The translations under genes and the position numbers were made by a program. From Owenia fusiformis (lineage: Eukaryota), in contig CAIIXF020000001.1 in assembly GCA_903813345.2 (NCBI GenBank), forward strand, positions 9,734,001 through 9,798,000: a stretch of DNA of 64,000 bases, read 5' to 3'. The notes beneath the pieces are model-generated. The model made no database searches. It was not told the origin of the DNA and was given only the letters and a program-made list of their open reading frames with translations. The first letter of the stretch is position 1. Each line of letters opens with the position of its first letter. Below, piece after piece: positions 7,771 to 19,473 of this stretch.

Positions 7771-10700
7771 ATGTTTTCAGAAATTATTTCCAGTCATTTT
7801 CCCGAAATAGACAGTGAATACTTGGATTATGTTACTGGTAAGTATTGTATATGTGTAGAGTTATACTTTAGTAATATGTTGTATCTTTAAATTTTCAACT
7901 AAATCTATAAATATAAAAGTTTTTATTGATACAAAAATTGACTTCATCATTGAGATCAGAAAAATTTTCATTCATTCATTCATTGCACAATACTTAGCAA
8001 TTACCAGAGGTTTTTGGCCTATATAAAGGTGGCAGAATTATATTAACCATTCTTTTTCTGGTATTCTAGAGATTTCCTATGTACTTTTTGAATTCCAATT
8101 TATGCCCCAAAAACGTGACTCTCAATGGGGTTTGTGTAAAAAACTGGGTACCTTACGTTCCTACCAGGGTTAGTAATTTGATTTTTTCCCCTCAAAAAAG
8201 CTGAACTGACCTACTCAACGTATAAGTCATACAATCAAGCAAACAACCGACCAAGCAACCAACTACTACTTTTTGCAAGGCCTGACTTCGTCGCTAACAT
8301 GCTAAATATAAGAGTTAGCTGACGTTTGGGAGTCTGACTTACCTTCTAAAGGTTAGAACCCGAATCTTAATGAAACCATATCACCTTTGTTCCGTCAACC
8401 ATGGAGCATTTGCCACAACATCCAAGAGGTAAATCATGGACCGAGAAAATGAATGATTTCCTTGTAAGTTCCGGAAGTTTCAATACGAAAAATTACTGAA
8501 CATATATGAAAACCGAATATTTGTTCGTTGTTTTCACGATTTACAGGTTCGTATGTTCTTCAATGTTTTGGTCTAAATTATAAAGCATCACCAACAGGTC
8601 TTACTCTATTAATGGACTAATACAGCAGACGGTTCATATTTCTACGTAGCATTTCGTTCAGACAAATAGTGGGACTGTAGATCACGCAGTTTCGTTCGTT
8701 GCGTACTTCACTCGAAATTGGTAATTTTATATTGGCTACTTCACTTAGCTTGGCGGATGTAGAACATTGCTTAATATTCTTTTAATTTTCACACCAGACA
8801 TGCTTGGTTGACACGTCAACAAAGTAAAGTTCAAGGGTCAATGCGTTATTTCGTGATAACTACAACGCCTTCCCGAAAGTCAACATTGATGAAAAATGAA
8901 AAAGTCGGAAAAGCATTTACACTAATTTCTATCAAATGCTATGTTTATGCATCATCATCGACGCAACAAAGGTGATATGGTTTCATTAAGATTCGGGTTC
9001 TAACCTTTAGAAGGTAAGTCAGACTCCCAAACGTCAGCTAACTCTTATATTTAGCATGTTAGCGACGAAGTCAGGCCTTGCAAAAAGTAGTAATCTACCA
9101 AGAAACCAACCGGCAAAACAAACATCAACATTCTGTCAGTCACTCAGGCAATAAAAACAAGCAACTAAAGTTGTATTGTACGTCATAAGTTAATTGATAG
9201 ATTATAACAGCAATAAAGTATCGATTTATATATTAGATATAATATGGACAATGGACATGTCTTGTATATTTATCAGTAGTGCTGTTTTAGAAAAAGGAAA
9301 TGTAGATTTTAAAAGTACCACTTCAATGTCCTTTGGGAACCTGAAAGAAAAGTTTAAATAAATTTGTCTAGGACAACCATTGACATATACCAAGGTTATT
9401 GCAGTTTTGCTTTTTAAGGTGAAGATGAAGTTCTAAAGATGTCTGAAACAGGAAGCGCATGTTTTTCAGTATATTTTTCAGTGTTAGTCCATCAAAATTT
9501 ATGCCTTTCAGTTTATCTTTGCTTCAATTTTGTTGGTTCCATCTATCATTTATTTTGATTTGACTAAGCTCACTATGGTAATAGGGAAAGAAACACTGAA
9601 CATATTGAAATAGGAATTTTAGTCCTCTGAAGATATGACAGATAAATGGAGAAAAAGAATACTGTGGGAAAGGACCATGAACAATATTTTGAAATTTCTT
9701 AGAAATGTCACTAAAGTAAACCCCCAAAACAAGCGAGCTTTAGAATTTTTTACTAAGAAGTGTTCATTTTCCTTATTTTGGGCGCTATTTTTGTTAAAGG
9801 CAATTTCATTTTTCCACTTTTATTATTTGTTGAAAAACATTTTGACAAATAATAGCTTTGTATAAAATTCTTACTTTCGTTCAATCTGTTAATTCAGGTA
9901 TCCTCTCTGAAGGCAGTGATGAATTTTCATCATCAGATGATGTCTACGAGGCTGTTGGGGAGGTGCTCCAAGGCTTGGATGATAAGCCAGATGATGACAT
10001 TGAGAAACTCTGCAAGGAGCTCTTCAACATGATGAAAGAGTGAGCACATTAAAATATTACAAACTGGCTCACAAACTTTCAAATAACTAAATGCATCAAT
10101 AACATCATCATATGTTTCCTCTCATATATTTTTCCTGTTTTGGTTGCTTTGTTTAAAGGCCCCATATAAAGTTTAAACCACCTTGGCTTATACAGAATAT
10201 ATTAAGTAGTCTTGCCCAACATCTCTAAAACAACTTTTAAAGGCATGAAAATAGTAAATGAACTTATTTTCAACATTACACAGGGCCTTTAAAGGTAATT
10301 TCTGGTGAGAAATGCATCCGTATCAACTAAAACAATGGCTCTCAGTAATCTTAATTCAGTTCTTTGTTCAGCCAAAGTAAAAAGGTTATTAACTTTGTAA
10401 ACAGGATTATAATGCATGGAAAAGGTTAGTTAACAATTCTGTTGTTTTTCAGTGATAAAAAGGCCAGTAAAGGTCCAGTACGGATCCTAGATGCCCCAAT
10501 GCAGATGGGAAGTTTAACTGATGCAGGGAATGGTACAGGAGATGATCATAGCATATGGATTGCTAAAAAGGATACTTCCTCGGTACTTTTAATGGCATAT
10601 ATATTAATTACAGGTTTTTAAAAACATATTTATAACCCTTTATCAAGTTTAGTCATCTATGAAAAACTGTATAATGAACCTTTAAAAAATTAAAATAGTT

Positions 10701-13700
10701 TGAATAGGGGCTAAAACAGATATTAAGGAATTCTTGAATGTTTTTGGGAATTATTTGTACATACATGTATTTTTCTATTTCCAATTATTTCAATCAAAGT
10801 TAAATACTGTTTAGATATAGGACAGAGTATTCATCAATATATTTAAACTGGATAATATTAGCTTTTGAAAAAACTGTTTACATTCAACAATATGTTTTGA
10901 AATTTCAGACTGTTGACAAAAAAAAGTTAGGAAAGGCTGAGGAGAAAATCAAACAAAAACAGGACAAGCGTGCTGCAGATGACAGCAAATTTAGAGCTAA
11001 ACCAGCAGAGAAAGGGTTTGAATTTAATTTACTCTGCATGTTGTGTTAAAGAAGGCATGTAAATGCCAGTTTTATTCATTGATTCAGTCTTCAACTCACA
11101 ATTTTTTTTTTATTGTATATCCCATAAGTATTATTGTTGCTCATTGGCTTATATTTGGTCATATGATATGAAAGTGAAAAATATCTGCCAGCAAAAAATG
11201 AAAAGGTACTGATGACCAGTTAAGTCATGTGACCATCTAAAGAATATTCATCCTGGAATATCAGGCAGTATTCAACTATATTGACATCACTAGATTGTGA
11301 TATCAATAGATTTAGAACAGAATGCCAAGGTAATGTGTAACGTTGAATTGCAGTATGGCGACTGCTAGTCAACAGGAGAGCAGGAAAGATGACTATGAAA
11401 ACAATGACCCAAGTGTTAAAGTCTCAGACATAAGAATAGACAACTTTGATGTCTCATTTGGTGAAAGGTAAGTGCAAAGTAAAATTGTTCCCTTTTTGAC
11501 TATTTTTGGAGAAAGCCCTGTAAAGTGTAAATTCCAGTATAAAATTATGCTTTATACAAAAAGAATGTTTTGATAATTGAGCAATCATCTCATAGATACT
11601 GTTTTTTTAAAAATAGACCAAGAGTTATGATTGGTGACATCATTAAAATGTTATGTTCTTTTTCAGGATATTACTCCAAAATGCTTCTATACTTTGTGCC
11701 TTTGGCAGGCGCTACGGGTTGGTGGGCAGGAATGGTGTGGGAAAAACCACTCTTCTTCACATGATCTCAAGGTTAGTACAAATAATGATTTCACCTTTTG
11801 GTATACAAAAATATTTCAAAATTTGAAAATGAATAAACATAATCAATATCAAAAAGATATTTTTGAAGATTAATCTTCCACTTGATTTTTGGCAAAAACG
11901 AAAGGCAGCTGATAATCTACAGACTACATAATGGTCAGACATCACAAAAACCTTTAGCAGAAGAACTTATTTCATTCAGTGCATACAGAAAAAATAGCGT
12001 TCCAAAACATACTACAGCAACTATCTAGTCTCAATGAATCAGTGATGACCTAGTTTGTTTGTGCTAAAGGAAATGGGCATCTCCAAGTCTCTTGATACAA
12101 GATAAGTTAACAATATTCATCATGTCTGTTTAGTGGCATATTAAAGATTCCGGCGTGTATAAGTATACTACATGTTGAGCAAGAGGTAGTTGGAGATGAC
12201 ACGCTAGCCATACAGAGTGTTCTAGAAGCTGATGAACACAGAGAAGCTCTCATCAAAGAAGAGAAAGAAATCAATGCAACTCTGAATGCAGCTGGCTCTA
12301 AAAGGTACATTTTGTGAAATGTCAAGTTTTGTTAAAGGCCCCATATAAAGTTTAAACCACTTTGGCTTATATTGTAGTCTTACCAAATGTTATCAAAGTG
12401 TGATATGTGAATTTTTTTTTTTAATTTCAAAATGTGGTTTTTGATAGACTTTTTGTTCCAAAATTTGTGAATTTATTTAAAACCAACTTTTAGAGGTCAC
12501 TCATATCTTCTAATTAGCCACAATTCATACCAATGCATAGCATTCATCCTCCCATGTTTTTTGCCGAAAAAATTAAGAAAATCGGCTCATAAATAAGCGA
12601 GAAATGAACTTATCAGTGCATGAAAATGGTTCTGAGAAAAATGCATTTCAAAATTTTAGTTCTCATAGAAACCAATGGTACAATGATATCTAAAACATAA
12701 TTTATTCTTCCTTTTAACCTGGTTAGACAACCAACATTAGTTTTTTATGAAAGTCTAACATATTTAGAAAAAATTGACATCGAAAAAAGAATTTCAATTT
12801 TTTTCAAAAAGTTTTTGGTACCTTAGTGACATCACTAATGTTTCAAAATATTTTTGATATGTTAAAACATTGAAGTGGCCCATTGAATATGGCATTTTAT
12901 TATTGAAATAGTGTGTCCTTTGTTCAATCTTTGCATTGGTGTTAAAAAGATAATCCTTTTTGAAATGCATTAAGAAATATTTGATGATTAAGAAATTTCA
13001 ACTTTTTTGGAAAAATGGCGGGAAATTTGAATGTTTGAGAAATGAAATGCTCACAACTTTTTTATCAAAAATCTTTTTTTGTTCAAAAATCTCTAAAACT
13101 ACTTTTTAAGTCCTGACAAATAGTAAATGAATGATAAAGAAATATTTTCAAACTTTAGACGGGGACTTTAAAGAGAGATAATCAATCAGTCTGAATGGTT
13201 CAATATTTTTCCTGAATAGATCAGATATAGCATGGGCTTTCAACTAGGATATAGATTTTAGAAATACATTGCCAAAAGCCCCCAAATAAACACGAAATTA
13301 ATGTTTTACCAACCAGGAGCTAAATATTCTTTTTTTAAATCAACACATTTTTGTTAACACATTAAAGATAAAGAATCCTAAGTTTGATGTTAGTGAAAAA
13401 GAAATTGGCTTGAAGAAGAGTCCCTAGAAAACATAGAGCCTGAAAGTGATGGTTTTGCATTTATGTTTGTTATTACAGGGCTCGATCAGATAGTAAACTG
13501 AGTGGCAGACTAGCAGAGATTTACCAAGAGATGGAAGATATTGAAGCTGACAAGGCCCCAGGAAGAGCTGCTGTTATACTCATTGGTTTAGGCTTCAGCG
13601 ACCAAGACCAGCAGAGAACAACAAAGTAAGCATTGGCTATATAATACAATATGTTGGCCCTAAGTGTTTATTTGTCTTGACTTGAAGAAATCAACTTTCT

Positions 13701-16700
13701 TGTTGACAAAATATCACATTTTTTCACAAAATACAAGTCTGTATGATTTATTAAGTTCCCAAACTGGATAATATGTTTAATTGATATTGATTTTGTTTAG
13801 GGTCTGTTTCAGTTTCCCGGGTTTTATAGTTTATTTTTTTCTAATCACTCTTTAGCTGGATTTCTTAATCTGTTATCCAATAGTTTGCAATGTAATTCAC
13901 TCAATGATTTCGTGATGAGGTAAGGTGATTCTTTTGATCATATTCAATCCTCCATTGTATAATATGGTTATATTTATCATTTGACCTACTTTTGCAACTT
14001 GACCTACTTTTTAAAAATAAGTAAAAGGAATCACCATGTTAGCCCTTTGAATCATGCTATTTCTACTCACTGATAATAGCTAAGAAATTAAAAGCAATGA
14101 AATGATTTTACAAGTAATAGATGGGTCTGCATCTGTCCCATTTCGAGCATTTTATAATAATCACTAAATAAGATCATGGCACAATCTCTTATTTGCATCT
14201 TAAAATTTCTTATTCTTCAGAGAATTTTCGGGAGGTTGGAGAATGAGATTGGCATTGGCCAGAGCTTTATTTAAAAAGTAAGTGAGCATTTATTCCATAC
14301 TTATAAACTTCAATCTCCATATGTTATCATTCTAACAATGGCTTTTATATTACTGTATCTGACTTTTACGATATATACTTCTATTGTTGTTCAGTATAAG
14401 TAATGTTAATAAAAAATGTCAAATTTCAGAACTTTAGAAGGCCAATTTTGAAATTGCTAGAAATTGAATTGATATCAGAATTGACCTTTCTTTGATCTTC
14501 TCGGACCAAAGAAGGAGTTAAAGGCTAGAATTATCTGCCTAAGTCATTAAAAAATGTCTCTGTAAGATTGTTTGCAATTTTAAATGTGTAGTTATAATAT
14601 GAATCCCCATCTTCTCTCTTCTAGACCAGATCTGCTTCTACTTGATGAACCCACTAACATGTTGGACATGAAGGCCATTATATGGCTTGAAAGTTACTTA
14701 CAGGTAAGAGCTTAAGGCCAGTTTTGACTTTCAGTTACCATATAATCGTCACATTATCGTGGAATCAAAATCCTTGTGATGTGTGTTCATTTATCATGTG
14801 TCTCTGATTTCAATGCTTTTAAGTAGTAGCGCTAATTCAAGAGAACTTTTTCTATGGGTGACATATTATAATGATCTTCCAACTTTTTGGTGGACAATGT
14901 TCAGTGGTTGGTATTTGACAGTTATGGTTTGGCATATGTAGCAAATGGCAGGTGGTGACATAATGCCTTGTTTACTCCATATAGTGACCAAGGGGATTGG
15001 AGATGCATAGTTAAAAACAATACTTTTGTCTTTTTTGAGATATTTTGTCATCTAAATATGAATAATTTCATTGTTTTCAGACATGGCCTACCACACTATT
15101 GTTAGTGTCTCACGACCAGCAGTTCCTCAACTCTGTTGTGACAGACATTTTCTACATGCACTCGCGGCAAATAGATCACTATAAAGGAGATTATAACATG
15201 TTTGTTCAGACTAGGAATGAGAAACTTAAAAATCAACAAAAAGAATATGAGTCACAAAAAATGTATAGAGATCATATACAGGTATGTATTTGACTGAAGA
15301 ATGTATGAATAGTACTATTGATTCAACCATAGCTGAATGCAGGGACTGTCAAACAATCAGATCAACATATTTACTATTCATTGTTAAGCAGCTATGAATG
15401 CTTTCTTGTGGCCAACTGCACTGCTCAAATCTGTGACATAATTGTGGTTGGATCCATATTATAACATCATTTCTAAGTCAGGCTGAACTCCAGTCAGTTC
15501 AGCATATAGTATATCTAACCTACACATTCATTGTATCTGGTTTTTATGTTGTGGGAAACACATAGTTGAATTGCAAATGTATGGTACTGTAAAATATGGT
15601 TCCATATGGAATCGTAGACTAAGACAGTATGGCACCACACTGGAATGGTACCATACTCTTACTGTACTGTATGGTACCATAATTTCAGAGTGTGAATTAA
15701 AAAATTTACTTTTTTCAAAAAATCTCTTTCTATACAAAAAGTGAACATCAGACTGTCATCAACCCAAATAAACCTCTTTGCTTTCAGACGTTTATTGATA
15801 GGTTTAGATACAATGCCAAAAGAGCCCCACTGGTACAAAGCAAACTGAAGTTACTTGCTAAATTGTAAGTTGAAACATTAATTATTCTTTCAATATTTTC
15901 AGGTATTCATAGATAGGTTTAGATACAATGCCAACCGAGCCTCAACAGTCCAAAGTAAAATCAAGCTATTAGCAAAATTGTAAGTCTTCATCCTATGCCA
16001 CATAGCATTTATACCATATTGTACCATATACTCGTACAGTACATGTTTACGCATGTCAGTTAAAATTTAGTGATTTTTATTTTTACTAATTACCAAAAAT
16101 TGTTAAAATGGACTTTGTGTAATTTTCATAATGTTACATCATTCGTAAAAATTAGATTTGTGATAACATTTGCATCTACTTTTTTGACAAGTATATCTGG
16201 TTGGTTTAATCCAGTTTTGTTATTTTCCAGACCGGAGCTGAAACCAGTTGAAAAAATCTCAGAAGTTGTGCTTAAGTAAGTATTTTTCTTGAATACAAAT
16301 CATTTCCACCAAATAAATATTTTTAAATACATGTTATCAAGATAATAAAAGTACATTCACACATAGGTAAGGTAAGGTGTGTCTGATTCCAGCCATTCCG
16401 AACAGAGTATTTTTCATATCAGTAGTGTGTGAAATAATCAATAACGCATTTGTTTTATGTCGTCGTCATGGTGAGGGAGCATGACTCACTGAGTTGCCAA
16501 TTTGACCCTTGCAAAAAGTTTCATCGAAAATATGTTTTTTTTGTAATTTTATATCTTTTAAGTTGCATGGAAGAACATATTTTGCAATGTATGAAAAGAA
16601 TTTAAGCCCAAGATTCAATACATTGTGGAATGACCATTCCTTTCAGGTGTTGTTTCCTAAAATTAACACTCAATGCGAAGCATCTCGTGCAAATTTTGGA

Positions 16701-19473
16701 AAGCAACACCTTCAAGAAATGGTCATTCCACATTGCACTGAGTCAAAGGCTTAAATCCTTAAACAAAACTTACATAAGAAAGCATTTTAAAATGATAGAA
16801 AAGTGGTCTCATATTTTGGAAGTCCTATTGCCTTTTGTGCCATTGTATAAGAATCCACTTAATGCGAACATCCACCAGTATGAGAAAATGTGAACACTTG
16901 TATGAGAAATTATGCTGATAAAAAAGCAATATTTGAAGAAATAACTTTCACACCAAGTATCTTCTCAAAACCACCATAGTTTTATCTGGATTCAGTTGGA
17001 ACATTGACTTTAGACATGTTAAGTAAAAAAACTAATCTGATAGAGTGAAGAAAGTGAAACTTGTAAAGTGGAACAGATCAAGAAGTGGACAACTGAATTA
17101 ATGTTCAATGAACATCTATAAGTGGAACCCCTCTCGAGTGGAACACTTTTTAGAGGTACCAAAGGCGCTCCTCTTATACAGATCTAACTGTAATTCTACT
17201 TAGGAGCAAACTCCTGTAAACTCTCCCTTTTTACAGATTCCCTGAAGTTGATAAACTAAATGGGACTGTCCTCCAATTGGATGAGGCCTCCTTCCACTAT
17301 GATCCTGCAAAACCCATATTTGAAAAGATGGATGTAGCTGCCTCCATGGATTCAAGAATATGTATTGTAAGTTCTCATGTATATATTTTTGTGAAATAGT
17401 GATATAAATAAATGGTATGTGAAACTAACACTAGATAAATGCTTTCCTTTGTCTGGGAATAATTTTCCAGAAAATCCTCCTCATAGTTCATCCAATTACA
17501 GTAGCACAATCAGATATATCACATCTAAGAATTTAAAAATTTTCTCCTATTTCTCATGAATTCTTACAATTGTGATTTATCAAAAATTAAAGTAATAGTA
17601 TGAGTTAACATCTCCAATGATATCTCATATGTGTGTATTGCTTTATTATGCCCTCTCAGTCAGTGGGTAAAATCTGGATTTTCCTGTGAGTCGGATGGTT
17701 TAAATGCATCTTCACCAGGGGTTGAGCTGATAGCCATAGTATTCTCCAATACCTGCTGAAATAATCGACTGACCAGTTTCAAAAGTAACCTGGCAATAAC
17801 CAGTGGCCCAGCCCTTACCTCAACCCTGATCTTTACACTTCCCATTGTATTGTATACATGCATAATTTCCAGGTGTAACCTGGCAATAACCAGTGGCCCA
17901 GCCCTTACCTCAACCCTGATCTTTACACTTCCCATTGTATTGTATACATGCATAATTTCCAGGTGGGAGAGAATGGTGCTGGTAAGACCACCTTACTGAA
18001 GCTCCTACTAGGTGCACTGGAGCCAACCAAAGGATTCTTGCATAGACATAGGAATATAAAGCTGGGATACTTCAGTCAGCATCACGTAGACCAGCTGGAC
18101 ATGAACTCAAATTCTGTTGAAGTAATACAGAAACAGTTGCCAGGTAACTAAACAATAACCGATTTATGCCTCATGGATGGTCTGAGTACACATTAAGAAC
18201 CACTACTGGCAAACCTGTCATATACTCTGACGATTGGGATATCAAAGGACTCACCTGAGCTGTATGTTAATGATAAGCAACTGCCATTTAGGAGCTACAT
18301 TGTTTCTTGTTCTGTCCTGGTAAATCGTTTGAAACTTAAAAAACTGGACTGTCAGTCATTTAGGACTGTTTGACATCAACAGATGCCAAATTTAAAAAAG
18401 AAATTATTTAAAATTGCAGATGACATGAATACATCGTTATTTTTTGTTTCACAAAATTATATGTAGATTTTCAAATAAAATTATTGGATATACTATTACA
18501 AATACCTACTGGTATACATAAAACTACTGACATACATGCATGTATTTTGTGCAATTCAGGTCATCATGTAGAGATTTATCGCGGTGCACTGGGAGCATTT
18601 GGTGTCTCTGGGGAACTAGCTTTGCGTCCAGTTATCAGTCTGTCTGGAGGACAGAAAAGTCGTGTTGCATTTGCAGTCATGTGTTTTGGAAGGTGAGCGG
18701 AGTTTATTCTTTGATTCATTGACATAACCAGCACTGAACACCAGCTGAGTTTTAATGAATTCGCAACACTCTAATTGTATGTACTTGAAGCTATGAGTGG
18801 ATTATGAGATTGAACTGAACTGATCGATGCTAGATCATTTATCTTGTATGGATACTGTATTGTAAAATGAAACTGGCATAATTTATTGATTATGTAATTT
18901 TAGTCCCAATTTCCTGATACTTGATGAACCTACCAATCACTTGGATATAGAAACAGTGGAGGCATTAGGGCATGCCCTCAACAAGTTCAAGGTCAGTGGA
19001 TGTCAGTGATGTCTAAAAATTGATACATGTACATTGTAGTACATACTTTCTTGATTTTGCCTTTGTGGCTCCAATGGGTATTCTCAGATCCAGCAAAACT
19101 AACTGGGACATGTAATCTAGACATGCTCATTCATAAAAATGATATTCCTCAATCCTATTATATGTGTTATTATATCACCACCACAAGTGGTGACATATTG
19201 CTATTATCTCCAACCTTTTTGTGGACAGTGTACGACATTCTGCTGTTGATGTTCAGTGGTTGACGTCTGTAACAGATGGCAGATTTTACATGTTAATAAG
19301 CCCATGTTTCTACTTTGCAGGGAGGCGTCATCCTAGTATCTCACGACGAGCGTCTGATCAGAATGATATGTACAGAACTTTGGGTTTGTGCTAATAAGAC
19401 AGTGACAGCCCTAGAAGGTGGCATAGATAAATACAAGGAACTTGTTGAAAGTGAGATCAAATTTGCAGAATAG
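7771..19473 (+). CDS. ABCF3: ATP-binding cassette sub-family F member 3 (GCN20-like), spliced
   Basis: GT-AG exons in consistent frame: 7771-7837, 9898-10039, 10453-10582, 10909-11015, 11354-11467, 11667-11771, 12134-12304, 13479-13625, 14221-14277, 14625-14703, 15081-15281, [15788-15864 or 15903-15979], 16231-16275, 17237-17366, 17963-18143, 18560-18692, 18904-18991, 19321-19473. N-terminus [17 protein letters not shown]1 [28 protein letters not shown]2 [33 protein letters not shown]; no TM domains. Confidence 0.95.
8266..9090. mobile_element. MITE with ~126-bp perfect TIRs and TA TSD in ABCF3 intron 1
   Basis: 8266-8391 is the reverse complement of 8965-9090; TA on both flanks. Confidence 0.9.
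10157..10288. mobile_element. Short TTAA-flanked (Kolobok-like) element
   Basis: TTAA|AGGCCCCATATAAAGTTT...CAGGGCCT|TTAA; same left end as the 12336 element. Confidence 0.6.
12336..13167. mobile_element. TTAA-flanked (Kolobok-like) non-autonomous element
   Basis: TTAA|AGGCCCCATATAAAGTTT...AAACTTTAGACGGGGACT|TTAA, imperfect TIRs. A related copy lies near 43266-43594. Confidence 0.65.
15788..15864 (+). CDS. ABCF3: ABCF3 alternative exon 12a ([26 protein letters not shown])
   Basis: 77 nt, TTTCAG acceptor, GTAAGT donor, open frame, paralogous to exon 12b. Confidence 0.8.
15903..15979 (+). CDS. ABCF3: ABCF3 alternative exon 12b ([26 protein letters not shown])
   Basis: 77 nt, TTTTCAG acceptor, GTAAGT donor; closer to the RYNANRAS sequence I recall for vertebrate ABCF3. 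Confidence 0.88.
17785..17965 (+). repeat. Perfect 90-bp tandem duplication including the ABCF3 exon 15 acceptor
   Basis: GTAACCTGGC...CATAATTTCCAGGT occurs twice; AG at 17871-17872 and 17961-17962. Confidence 0.95.

What the first reader, a model, noticed from the sequence alone, without database searches (positions are those of the whole stretch)
15788..15979. ABCF3 has mutually exclusive exons encoding alternative tips of the inter-ABC linker
Seen: two 77-nt paralogous exons, both AG/GTAAGT, separated by 38 nt, which is probably too short to splice. Double inclusion would frameshift. The peptides share FIDRFRYNA and VQSK but differ in the middle: KRAPL (12a) vs NRAST (12b). Known: in ABCF proteins (EttA, ARE-ABCFs) the helical-hairpin linker (PtIM) reaches toward the P-site tRNA and peptidyl-transferase centre, and GCN20/ABCF3 works with GCN1 on stalled ribosomes. 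Inference: splicing switches the ribosome-probing loop of ABCF3, a possibly undescribed way to tune translation surveillance.
Basis: partly seen in the sequence, partly recalled or inferred. Interest (0 to 1): 0.85.

Follow-up and report, generated by a model that had tools for sequence, protein, structure and literature searches.

The report
Swappable linker-tip exon in annelid ABCF3
An annelid worm's ABCF3 (GCN20) gene carries two tandem copies of one 77-base exon and always splices in exactly one, giving two versions of the protein that differ at the tip of the hairpin which, in related proteins, touches the ribosome's catalytic centre; it is a real and apparently undescribed example of a well-known splicing device, and its functional meaning is untested.

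Summary
Exons 12a (15788-15864) and 12b (15903-15979) are both 77 nt, 58/77 nt and 20/25 residues identical, and 38 nt apart.

- **Gene:** it is the ABCF3/GCN20 orthologue. P0002, which its source names Owenia fusiformis, uses 12b.
- **Splicing:** in 4 of 4 runs laid, from 3 studies, both exons are spliced between exons 11 and 13. Exon 12a makes up 28-42% of transcripts. No joint that includes both or neither was listed.
- **Selection:** dN/dS between the copies is about 0.13 with dS about 1.3, so both have stayed coding since an old duplication.
- **Location:** the exon encodes the turn and second helix of the inter-NBD hairpin (PF12848/PtIM). Three of the five variant residues align with YheS T271, K274 and Q275, which contact 23S rRNA at the PtIM tip.

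Three things are not shown: regulation of the ratio, a functional difference between the isoforms, and presence of the pair in other taxa. Nor has ABCF3's hairpin been seen on a ribosome. Four literature searches found no description. The scan had noted this device in another gene (rotifer arrestin), but never in ABCF3. Verdict: a new member of a known kind, of moderate interest.

The parts
15081..15281 (+). Exon 11 of ABCF3. It holds the end of NBD1 (the SHD H-loop) and most of hairpin helix 1, and it is the common splice donor at 15281.
   Evidence: Joint 14703>15081 and both joints leaving 15281. Sequence at the boundaries. tblastn of P0002.
15788..15864 (+). Exon 12a, 77 nt, the alternative copy. 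It encodes T441, K451, P454, L455 and L460 in P0002 numbering. It is absent from the one protein record found for this gene.
   Evidence: Joints 15281>15788 (30 and 39 reads; contig depths 177.8 and 58.1) and 15864>16231 (28 and 27 reads). Translation. No matching peptide in the protein collection.
15865..15902 (+). 38-nt spacer: the 5' splice site GTAAGT of 12a, then the pyrimidine tract and CAG of 12b. It is never removed as an intron on its own.
   Evidence: Sequence. No joint 15864>15903 was listed at the threshold of 3 reads or more and min_share 1. The other introns of this gene are 178 nt or longer (from coordinates).
15903..15979 (+). Exon 12b, 77 nt, the canonical-like copy used in P0002. 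It encodes V441, N451, S454, T455 and I460.
   Evidence: Joints 15281>15903 (69 and 59 reads; contig depths 337.1 and 81.6) and 15979>16231 (71 and 39 reads). P0002 sequence.
16231..16275 (+). Exon 13, the common acceptor for both alternative exons.
   Evidence: Joints into 16231 and joint 16275>17237.
7771..19470 (+). The coding span of the whole ABCF3 (GCN20) orthologue, with 18 coding exon positions plus the duplicated one.
   Evidence: tblastn of P0002 (708 aa) on the window, 87-100% per exon. Pfam gives ABC_tran x2 plus ABC_tran_Xtn.
15595..16028 (+). A cluster of the palindromic motif TATGGTACCATA (up to 1 mismatch) in the two introns that flank the exon pair. Its role is unknown.
   Evidence: 4 matches in the 64-kb window, all in this span, against 0.24 expected; 0 of 100 shuffles reach 4. 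The fold of 15560-16060 is not exceptional, z = -1.52.

Best explanation
A small tandem duplication with a 115-nt period copied the 77-nt exon together with its splice sites in the ABCF3/GCN20 gene of this annelid. The spliceosome joins exon 11 to either copy, and every mature mRNA carries exactly one. Two features enforce this. First, the 38 nt between the 5' splice site of 12a and the acceptor of 12b is too short to be removed as an intron (inferred steric hindrance). Second, 77 is not a multiple of three, so including both or neither puts a stop codon within 2 or 6 codons and should send such errors to nonsense-mediated decay (inferred). The result is two ABCF3 proteins, about one third 12a and two thirds 12b, made side by side. 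They differ at five residues. Three of these (N/K451, S/P454, T/L455) sit directly after the turn of the helical hairpin (PtIM, PF12848) that links the two ATPase domains. In the closest solved ribosome-bound relative, YheS, the aligned residues contact 23S rRNA next to the peptidyl-transferase centre. The 12a tip is more basic and more hydrophobic, and its proline in the first turn of helix 2 probably lengthens the turn. [quoted passage not shown] Shown here: the exons, their exclusive use, their ratio, purifying selection on both, and their position in the fold. Inferred: the enforcement mechanism, that ABCF3's tip contacts the ribosome as YheS's does, and any functional difference.
For: Anatomy. 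RNA: junction reads for X16 and X17 were 15281>15788 30 and 39, 15281>15903 69 and 59, 15864>16231 28 and 27, and 15979>16231 71 and 39. Spliced contigs of both forms occur in X4 (depths 177.8 and 337.1) and X15 (58.1 and 81.6). All reads have the first mate on the minus strand, which fits a plus-strand transcript. No both-or-neither joint was listed. The 12a share is 0.28-0.42. Frame consequences. Selection: 10.2 synonymous differences over 16.7 sites against 8.8 nonsynonymous over 58.3 sites, dS 1.26, dN 0.17, ratio 0.13, Fisher p = 8e-4. The one SNP seen in 12a, 15844 A>G, is synonymous. Location: PF12848 at 399-474. The AF2 model has mean pLDDT 82, about 88-90 across 441-460, with helices 411-446 and 450-465 and a turn at 447-449. 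The model matches ribosome-bound YheS, Arb1 and YbiT at target-normalised TM 0.80-0.83. The alignment to YheS is ungapped here, so YheS residue = P0002 residue minus 180. The YheS paper (passages and section 13 read) lists K269 and A270 as tRNA contacts and H258, R267, T271, K274, Q275, Q277, S278, R279, K281 and R285 as 23S rRNA contacts. Seven of those ten rRNA-contact positions are identical or conservatively replaced in ABCF3 (H438, R447, Q457, S458, K459, K461, K465) and are invariant or nearly so in 27 orthologues. The other three are exactly the positions the two exons vary. In YheS, the mutant Q275A/Q277A/R279A/K281A is severely defective. The mechanisms named are the textbook ones for two-exon clusters (passage of PMC6071210).
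Against: No functional difference was tested. The ratio is much the same in all four runs, and X16 against X17 is not significant, so nothing points to regulation. Four of the five 12a-specific residues occur as the only form in some of 36 other ABCF3 homologues (T1 in 4, K11 in 3, L15 in 3, L20 in 32). Only P14 is unique, at 0 of 36. Most of the difference therefore lies within normal orthologue variation. ABCF3 or Gcn20's ABC core and hairpin have not been seen on a ribosome; the 2026 human GCN1-ABCF3 preprint does not mention a PtIM and calls the ATPase role open. In YheS, mutations of the tip-tRNA contacts had only modest effects. The steric and NMD steps are inferred: no branch point was mapped, and no NMD-blocked sample was looked at. 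The 12a isoform itself could not be folded. A listing threshold of 3 reads means up to 2 both-or-neither reads per run could have gone unseen.
Confidence: 0.8

Rival explanations
1. Regulated functional switch. The two tips give ABCF3 different preferences for ribosome or tRNA state, and the animal shifts the 12a:12b ratio by stage, tissue or stress to tune GCN1/GCN2 surveillance.
For: The varied residues align with rRNA-contacting tip residues of YheS. [quoted passage not shown] Both copies have been kept under purifying selection since an old duplication. P454 is unique among 37 homologues.
Against: The 12a share is 0.28-0.42 in all four runs, with no significant difference between X16 and X17, although the sample types are unknown to me. 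The tips have the same length and keep all seven conserved contact residues. No role for ABCF3's hairpin is established.
Confidence: 0.2
2. Functionally equivalent isoforms. The duplication became fixed, and both copies are kept only because each now supplies a large share of the ABCF3 dose. The residue differences are tolerated drift.
For: Any exon present in about a third of mRNAs would show dN/dS below 1 whether or not it has a distinct function. Four of five 12a residues occur in orthologues as the only form. The ratio is stable. No 12a-like form was found in other taxa, but those are weak searches.
Against: The non-synonymous changes cluster at the tip (3 of 5 within residues 451-455) rather than being spread along the exon. 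Proline at 454 is found in 0 of 36 other homologues.
Confidence: 0.4
3. Artefact. 12a is an assembly duplication, a second allele, or belongs to a paralogue, and the 12a reads come from elsewhere.
For: None positive. The contiguity of both copies in DNA rests on the assembly alone, because no DNA run was laid.
Against: The copies differ at 19 of 77 nt with saturated synonymous divergence, far beyond allelic difference. Each has its own splice sites. 12a reads and contigs join to this locus's exons 11 and 13 at 95% identity or better, with 0 other letters over 12a in the X4 and X15 contigs, in 4 of 4 runs from 3 studies.
Confidence: 0.02

Closest known systems
Mutually exclusive exon pairs made by tandem exon duplication and enforced by a too-short intervening intron plus reading-frame incompatibility. 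The classic alpha-tropomyosin exon 2/3 example is recalled from memory; the mechanisms are summarised in PMC6071210 (passage read) and in the human MXE survey PMC5740500 (passages read).
   Same: Two adjacent homologous exons of equal length and phase, each with its own splice sites. Exactly one is present per mRNA. The intervening intron is far below normal size. Exon length is not divisible by three, so errors become premature-stop transcripts.
   Different: The gene. No ABCF gene appears in the main text of PMC5740500 (0 occurrences of 'ABCF'; supplements not seen). Four targeted literature searches found nothing on ABCF3 or GCN20. Neither the steric step nor the NMD step was tested here.
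PtIM (P-site tRNA interaction motif, PF12848; the 'ARD' of antibiotic-resistance ABCFs) of ribosome-bound ABCF proteins: YheS (9vvi, 9nlh), EttA, YbiT, Uup, Arb1 (6r84).
   Same: The same helix-turn-helix between two NBDs. The region aligns without gaps to YheS, Arb1 and YbiT. Seven of ten YheS rRNA-contact positions are conserved. Tip variation is the known source of functional specificity in the family.
   Different: In bacteria and yeast, different tips are carried by separate paralogous genes and often differ in length. Here one gene makes two tips of equal length by splicing. ABCF3's own PtIM has not been visualised on a ribosome.
GCN20/ABCF3 as partner of GCN1 on collided ribosomes (Murina et al. 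2019, PMC6723617, passages read; human GCN1-ABCF3 preprint 10.64898/2026.09.19.752920, abstract, section 9 and passages read).
   Same: The window's gene is the orthologue: sources name its closest relatives ABCF3, at 53-62% identity to 26 orthologues.
   Different: Known GCN20 function is tied to its N-terminal binding to GCN1. Nothing is known about isoforms of the linker, and no alternative linker exon is reported in the passages I read.

Membership tests
Mutually exclusive exons from tandem exon duplication | Adjacent exons are homologous, of equal length and in the same phase | tested here: met
   77 nt each, 58/77 nt and 20/25 residues identical, same phase. The repeat unit has a 115-nt period.
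Mutually exclusive exons from tandem exon duplication | Each exon is spliced to the common upstream and downstream exons | tested here: met
   All four junctions were seen in 2 raw-read RNA runs and as spliced contigs in 2 further runs.
Mutually exclusive exons from tandem exon duplication | Transcripts contain one and only one of the exons | tested here: met
   No 15864>15903 joint and no 15281>16231 joint was listed in any of the 4 runs (threshold 3 reads, min_share 1), against 66-99 junction reads per side per raw run.
Mutually exclusive exons from tandem exon duplication | The exon pair is conserved in related species | not testable with these tools
   No eukaryote genomes are searchable and the window's own genome is not held. 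Protein-collection searches for a 12a-like peptide found none. 0 of 80 metagenome loci carry a tandem copy, but these are mostly microbial.
Steric-hindrance / NMD-enforced two-exon cluster | The intervening intron is too short to be spliced | tested here: inconclusive
   The spacer is 38 nt against 178 nt or more for the gene's other introns, and it was never seen spliced. The minimum intron size in this species and the branch point were not determined.
Steric-hindrance / NMD-enforced two-exon cluster | Double inclusion or double skipping breaks the frame | tested here: met
   Stops appear after 2 and 6 codons respectively. Decay of such transcripts was not tested.
ABCF ATPase, ABCF3/GCN20 subfamily | Two ABC nucleotide-binding domains joined by the PF12848 linker, with no membrane domain | tested here: met
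   PF00005 in two stretches and PF12848 at 399-474. The model matches ABCF1, YheS, Arb1 and YbiT at target-normalised TM 0.80-0.85.
ABCF ATPase, ABCF3/GCN20 subfamily | Orthology to ABCF3 rather than ABCF1 or ABCF2, including the ABCF3-type N-terminal domain | tested here: met
   The closest full-length relatives are named ABCF3 by their sources and carry the precomputed N-terminal family PF26051, as does P0002. Identity to 26 orthologues over the full length is 53-62%.
ABCF ATPase, ABCF3/GCN20 subfamily | [quoted passage not shown] | not testable with these tools
   This is inferred only from the ungapped alignment to YheS and conserved contact residues. No ABCF3-ribosome structure of the ABC core is reported in what I read.

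The most novel reading that the evidence does not exclude
One gene does by splicing what bacteria do with separate ABCF paralogues. The 12a and 12b tips would give ABCF3 two distinct specificities for ribosome, tRNA or nascent-chain state, and the ratio would be set by stage, tissue or nutrient stress. That would make the hairpin tip, so far without a known role in GCN20/ABCF3, a tunable part of collision and starvation sensing.
Probability: 0.15. Interest if true: 0.75.

Novelty: new member of a known kind. Interest (0 to 1): 0.45.

Why it matters
What the ABC core and hairpin of GCN20/ABCF3 do is an open question. The latest human GCN1-ABCF3 work still calls the ATPase role undetermined. In this animal, two versions of just the hairpin tip have been kept under purifying selection and are expressed together. 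The changes fall at the three rRNA-contact positions (by alignment to YheS) that are not conserved between YheS and ABCF3. This argues that the tip of ABCF3 is a working surface. It also offers a ready-made pair of natural variants for testing the tip's role in ribosome binding, ATPase activity and GCN2 activation. As a splicing event it is ordinary: a clean two-exon, short-spacer, out-of-frame cluster. It also shows that the public protein record found for this gene lacks an isoform that makes up about a third of its mRNA.

Tried and rejected
2. It was repeated with a 40-residue window reference. Against longer proteins this gave 7 candidates and 5 hits, none with the 12a KRAPL tip. Against proteins of 22-70 residues it gave no candidate. 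This is weak evidence, because alternative exons form short bubbles in assemblies and are easily lost.
3. The window's own genome is not held, so paralogues and DNA contiguity could not be checked.
4. A metagenome scan with the ABCF3 alignment kept 80 loci, of which 0 have two linked copies of the motif. One locus had a spurious second regex match. Most loci are intronless microbial or fungal ABCFs, so the result is uninformative.
5. Earlier findings of this scan by place, by sequence and by words returned nothing on ABCF3.
6. Competing RNA structure as the selection mechanism: inverted repeats exist and a palindromic motif clusters around the exon pair. However, the fold of 15560-16060 is not better than shuffles (z = -1.52; 7 of 100 shuffles fold as well), and there is no selector inside the 38-nt spacer, so I did not adopt it.
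7. U2/U12 incompatibility is rejected: both exons have the same ...CAG / GTAAGT sites.
8. The 12a isoform could not be folded, because the tools do not accept a spliced sequence that is absent from the collection.
10. P0040, the one other homologue with the LLAKL ending, is only 61% identical to P0002, so it is not a close relative and carries a single canonical-type exon.
Full report
**What is there.** On the plus strand, 15788-15864 and 15903-15979 are two 77-nt segments. Each is preceded by a pyrimidine tract ending in TTTCAG and followed by GTAAGT, and they are 38 nt apart. They are identical at 58 of 77 bases and 20 of 25 residues. The translations are [25 protein letters not shown] and [25 protein letters not shown]. 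The similarity runs 6 nt into both flanks, giving an 89-nt repeat at 79% identity with a 115-nt period. The event was therefore a small tandem duplication of the exon with its splice sites, and the short spacer is a by-product of that. There is no third copy in the 64-kb window, at either the nucleotide or the peptide level.

**The gene.** The upstream exon translation finds a 708-residue protein, P0002, at 100% identity. Its source names it Owenia fusiformis (an annelid), and its nearest relatives are named ABCF3. tblastn of P0002 places the gene at 7771-19470 on the plus strand with 18 coding exon positions. P0002 uses 12b. Exon boundaries taken from the read joints are:

- exon 10: 14625-14703
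- exon 11: 15081-15281
- exon 13: 16231-16275
- exon 14: 17237-17368

Pfam finds two ABC_tran stretches and ABC_tran_Xtn (PF12848) at residues 399-474.

**Are both exons used?** I laid two raw-read RNA runs (X16, X17) and the contigs of two other runs (X4, X15) on 14501-17500. Together they come from three studies.

| Joint | X16 reads | X17 reads | X4 contig depth | X15 contig depth |
|---|---|---|---|---|
| 15281>15788 (into 12a) | 30 | 39 | 177.8 | 58.1 |
| 15281>15903 (into 12b) | 69 | 59 | 337.1 | 81.6 |
| 15864>16231 (out of 12a) | 28 | 27 | 177.8 | 58.1 |
| 15979>16231 (out of 12b) | 71 | 39 | 337.1 | 81.6 |

- All reads have the first mate on the minus strand, as expected for a plus-strand transcript in a stranded library.
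- No joint 15864>15903 (both exons) and no joint 15281>16231 (neither exon) was listed in any run. The listing threshold was 3 reads at min_share 1.
- The 12a share is 0.28-0.41 by junction reads and 0.35 and 0.42 by contig depth.
- X16 and X17 do not differ significantly (Fisher p = 0.18 upstream, 0.10 downstream).
- The X4 and X15 contigs cover 12a and 12b with 0 other letters.

Both exons are therefore used, exclusively of each other, in 4 of 4 runs. Exon 12a is a major isoform, not splicing noise.

**Has 12a been kept as coding sequence?** Between the copies there are 10.2 synonymous differences over 16.7 sites and 8.8 nonsynonymous differences over 58.3 sites. That gives dS 1.26, dN 0.17 and a ratio of 0.13, with Fisher p = 8e-4. 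With only 25 codons these numbers are rough. Even so, the duplication is clearly old and neither copy has drifted freely. The only polymorphism seen in 12a (15844 A>G, 5 of 44 and 5 of 42 reads) is synonymous, as are all 10 polymorphisms seen in exons 10 and 11. Both copies share Ala at position 24, where 35 of 36 other homologues have Glu. This fits a duplication within this lineage, after that substitution.

**How exclusivity is enforced (inferred).** The known mechanisms for two-exon clusters are a too-short intervening intron, U2/U12 incompatibility, NMD of out-of-frame products, and competing RNA structures (passage of PMC6071210).

- **Short spacer:** it is 38 nt, while the gene's other introns are 178 nt or more, and it was never seen removed.
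- **Frame:** including both exons gives a stop two codons into 12b. Including neither gives a stop after six codons.
- **U2/U12 incompatibility:** both exons have the same U2-type sites, which rules this out.
- **RNA structure:** I found no support. The fold of 15560-16060 has z = -1.52.

I therefore favour steric hindrance backed by NMD. Neither step was tested.

**Where the difference sits in the protein.** Exon 12 encodes residues 441-465 of P0002. The AF2 model was built from 27 sequences and has mean pLDDT 82, about 88-90 in this region. It shows helix 411-446, a turn at 447-449 and helix 450-465. The model matches ATP-bound ABCF1 and ribosome-bound YheS, Arb1 and YbiT at target-normalised TM 0.80-0.85.

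The exon thus encodes the last turns of helix 1, the turn itself and all of helix 2 of the hairpin. Its variant residues are 441 (V/T), 451 (N/K), 454 (S/P), 455 (T/L) and 460 (I/L).

The phmmer alignment to E. coli YheS is ungapped through this region, so a YheS residue number equals the P0002 number minus 180. I read passages and section 13 of the 2026 YheS-ribosome paper PMC13249984. It places K269 and A270 at the PtIM tip on U73 and C74 of the P-site tRNA. It lists H258, R267, T271, K274, Q275, Q277, S278, R279, K281 and R285 as contacts to 23S rRNA helices 74, 75, 80 and 93.

- **Conserved contacts:** H438, R447, Q457, S458, K459, K461 and K465 of ABCF3 match seven of the ten rRNA contacts. 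These are invariant or nearly so in 27 orthologues.
- **Varied contacts:** the remaining three, T271, K274 and Q275, align with 451, 454 and 455. These are exactly the positions the two exons vary.
- **Functional weight in YheS:** R279A loses more than half of the activity, and Q275A/Q277A/R279A/K281A loses more. The tRNA-contact mutants have modest effects.
- **Family-wide pattern:** a comparative cryo-EM preprint (passages read) states that the PtIM tip always touches the acceptor stem and rRNA near the PTC, and that tip sequence and length set specificity across ABCFs.

**What is not supported.**

- Nothing here shows a switch. The ratio is similar in every run I laid, and I do not know what the samples are.
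- Nothing shows a functional difference. Four of the five 12a residues occur as the sole form in some orthologues (T1 in 4 of 36, K11 in 3, L15 in 3, L20 in 32). One brittle-star protein, P0037, has T, K and L together.
- Only Pro454 is unique, at 0 of 36. It sits in the first turn of helix 2, where it would remove a backbone hydrogen bond and probably extend the turn. That is inference, because the 12a isoform could not be folded with the tools.
- For ABCF3/GCN20 itself, the literature I read ties function to the N-terminal domain's binding to GCN1 (PMC6723617 passages).
- The 2026 human GCN1-ABCF3 preprint (abstract, section 9 and passages read) identifies ABCF3 by proteomics, does not mention the PtIM, and calls the ATPase role undetermined.

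**Conservation elsewhere.** This could not be tested properly.

- The protein collection holds no 12a-like peptide, not even from this species. That shows how easily alternative exons are missed.
- The window's genome is not held.
- 0 of 80 metagenome loci carry a tandem copy, but they are mostly microbial.
- One unnamed protein, P0036, reads through intron sequence on both sides of the same exon unit. The 77-nt exon boundaries are therefore shared with at least one other animal.

**Novelty.** The searches were:

- 'ABCF3' + 'mutually exclusive': 6 papers, 5 listed, none about this in title or abstract. I opened one, and it concerns retained introns in human cells.
- 'GCN20' + 'mutually exclusive exons': 0 papers.
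- 'ABCF' + 'alternative splicing' + 'P-site tRNA interaction motif': 0 papers.
- 'Owenia fusiformis' + 'mutually exclusive': 7 papers, 6 listed, none on splicing by title or abstract.
- The main text of the human MXE survey has 0 mentions of 'ABCF' (supplements not seen).
- A broader two-of-five-terms search listed 15 of 1,491 papers, none of which contained the phrase 'mutually exclusive exons'.

This scan's earlier notes hold an analogous duplicated-exon case in a rotifer arrestin gene, but nothing on ABCF3.

**Verdict.** This is a genuine, well-expressed, apparently undescribed mutually exclusive exon pair. That makes it a new member of a very well-known kind. What lifts it above routine is the location: it falls on the one part of an ABCF protein that sets ribosome specificity in the family, in the subfamily whose ABC core has no assigned role. 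My estimates are:

| Claim | Probability |
|---|---|
| Real mutually exclusive splicing | about 0.97 |
| Tip location | about 0.9 |
| ABCF3's tip contacts the ribosome as YheS's does | about 0.6 |
| The two isoforms differ functionally | about 0.35 |
| The ratio is regulated | about 0.2 |

Noticed in passing
window 15595-15681 and 16017-16028: The palindromic 12-mer TATGGTACCATA (up to 1 mismatch) occurs 4 times in the 64-kb window, against 0.24 expected. All four lie in the two introns flanking the exon pair: three upstream of 12a and one 38 nt downstream of 12b. A perfect 12-bp hairpin forms between 15645-15656 and 15669-15680. It could be a regulator site, a looping element or a local low-complexity repeat.
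   Followed up: partly
window 15797-15819 and 15912-15934: A 23-nt core (codons 4-10 plus the first two bases of codon 11) is identical in both exon copies, although synonymous sites elsewhere are near saturation. This may be chance (roughly 3% by my estimate, not computed in a call), partial gene conversion, or a shared exonic splicing signal.
   Followed up: no
window 16500-16800 and 17000-17200 (intron 13): Reads on both strands and very deep contigs (mean word depth up to 1722) lie here, with odd non-GT-AG joints. This looks like a dispersed repeat or transposon fragment expressed from elsewhere in the genome.
   Followed up: no
window 14901-15000 (intron 10): There is low read depth (2.9 and 0.95) and there are contigs with variants at 14936 and 14941, just upstream of exon 11. 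This may be a minor alternative exon or a repeat.
   Followed up: no
window 16231-16250 (exon 13): Loose ends after 15864 (13 reads in X16) and a 10-letter replacement after 15979 (3 reads in X17) read like exon 13 with a few differences. This suggests a divergent haplotype of this short exon, so junction counts into exon 13 are slight underestimates.
   Followed up: no
window 17246, 17295-17296 (exon 14): Unlike exons 10-12, exon 14 shows expressed non-synonymous polymorphisms: E>D at 17246 and changes to the His codon at 17295-17296, at about 20-27% of reads.
   Followed up: partly
protein P0001 (a source names it Branchiostoma floridae, 1197 aa): This record contains the ABCF3 linker region twice (motif at residues 387 and 931). 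It is probably two tandem genes merged in one gene model.
   Followed up: no
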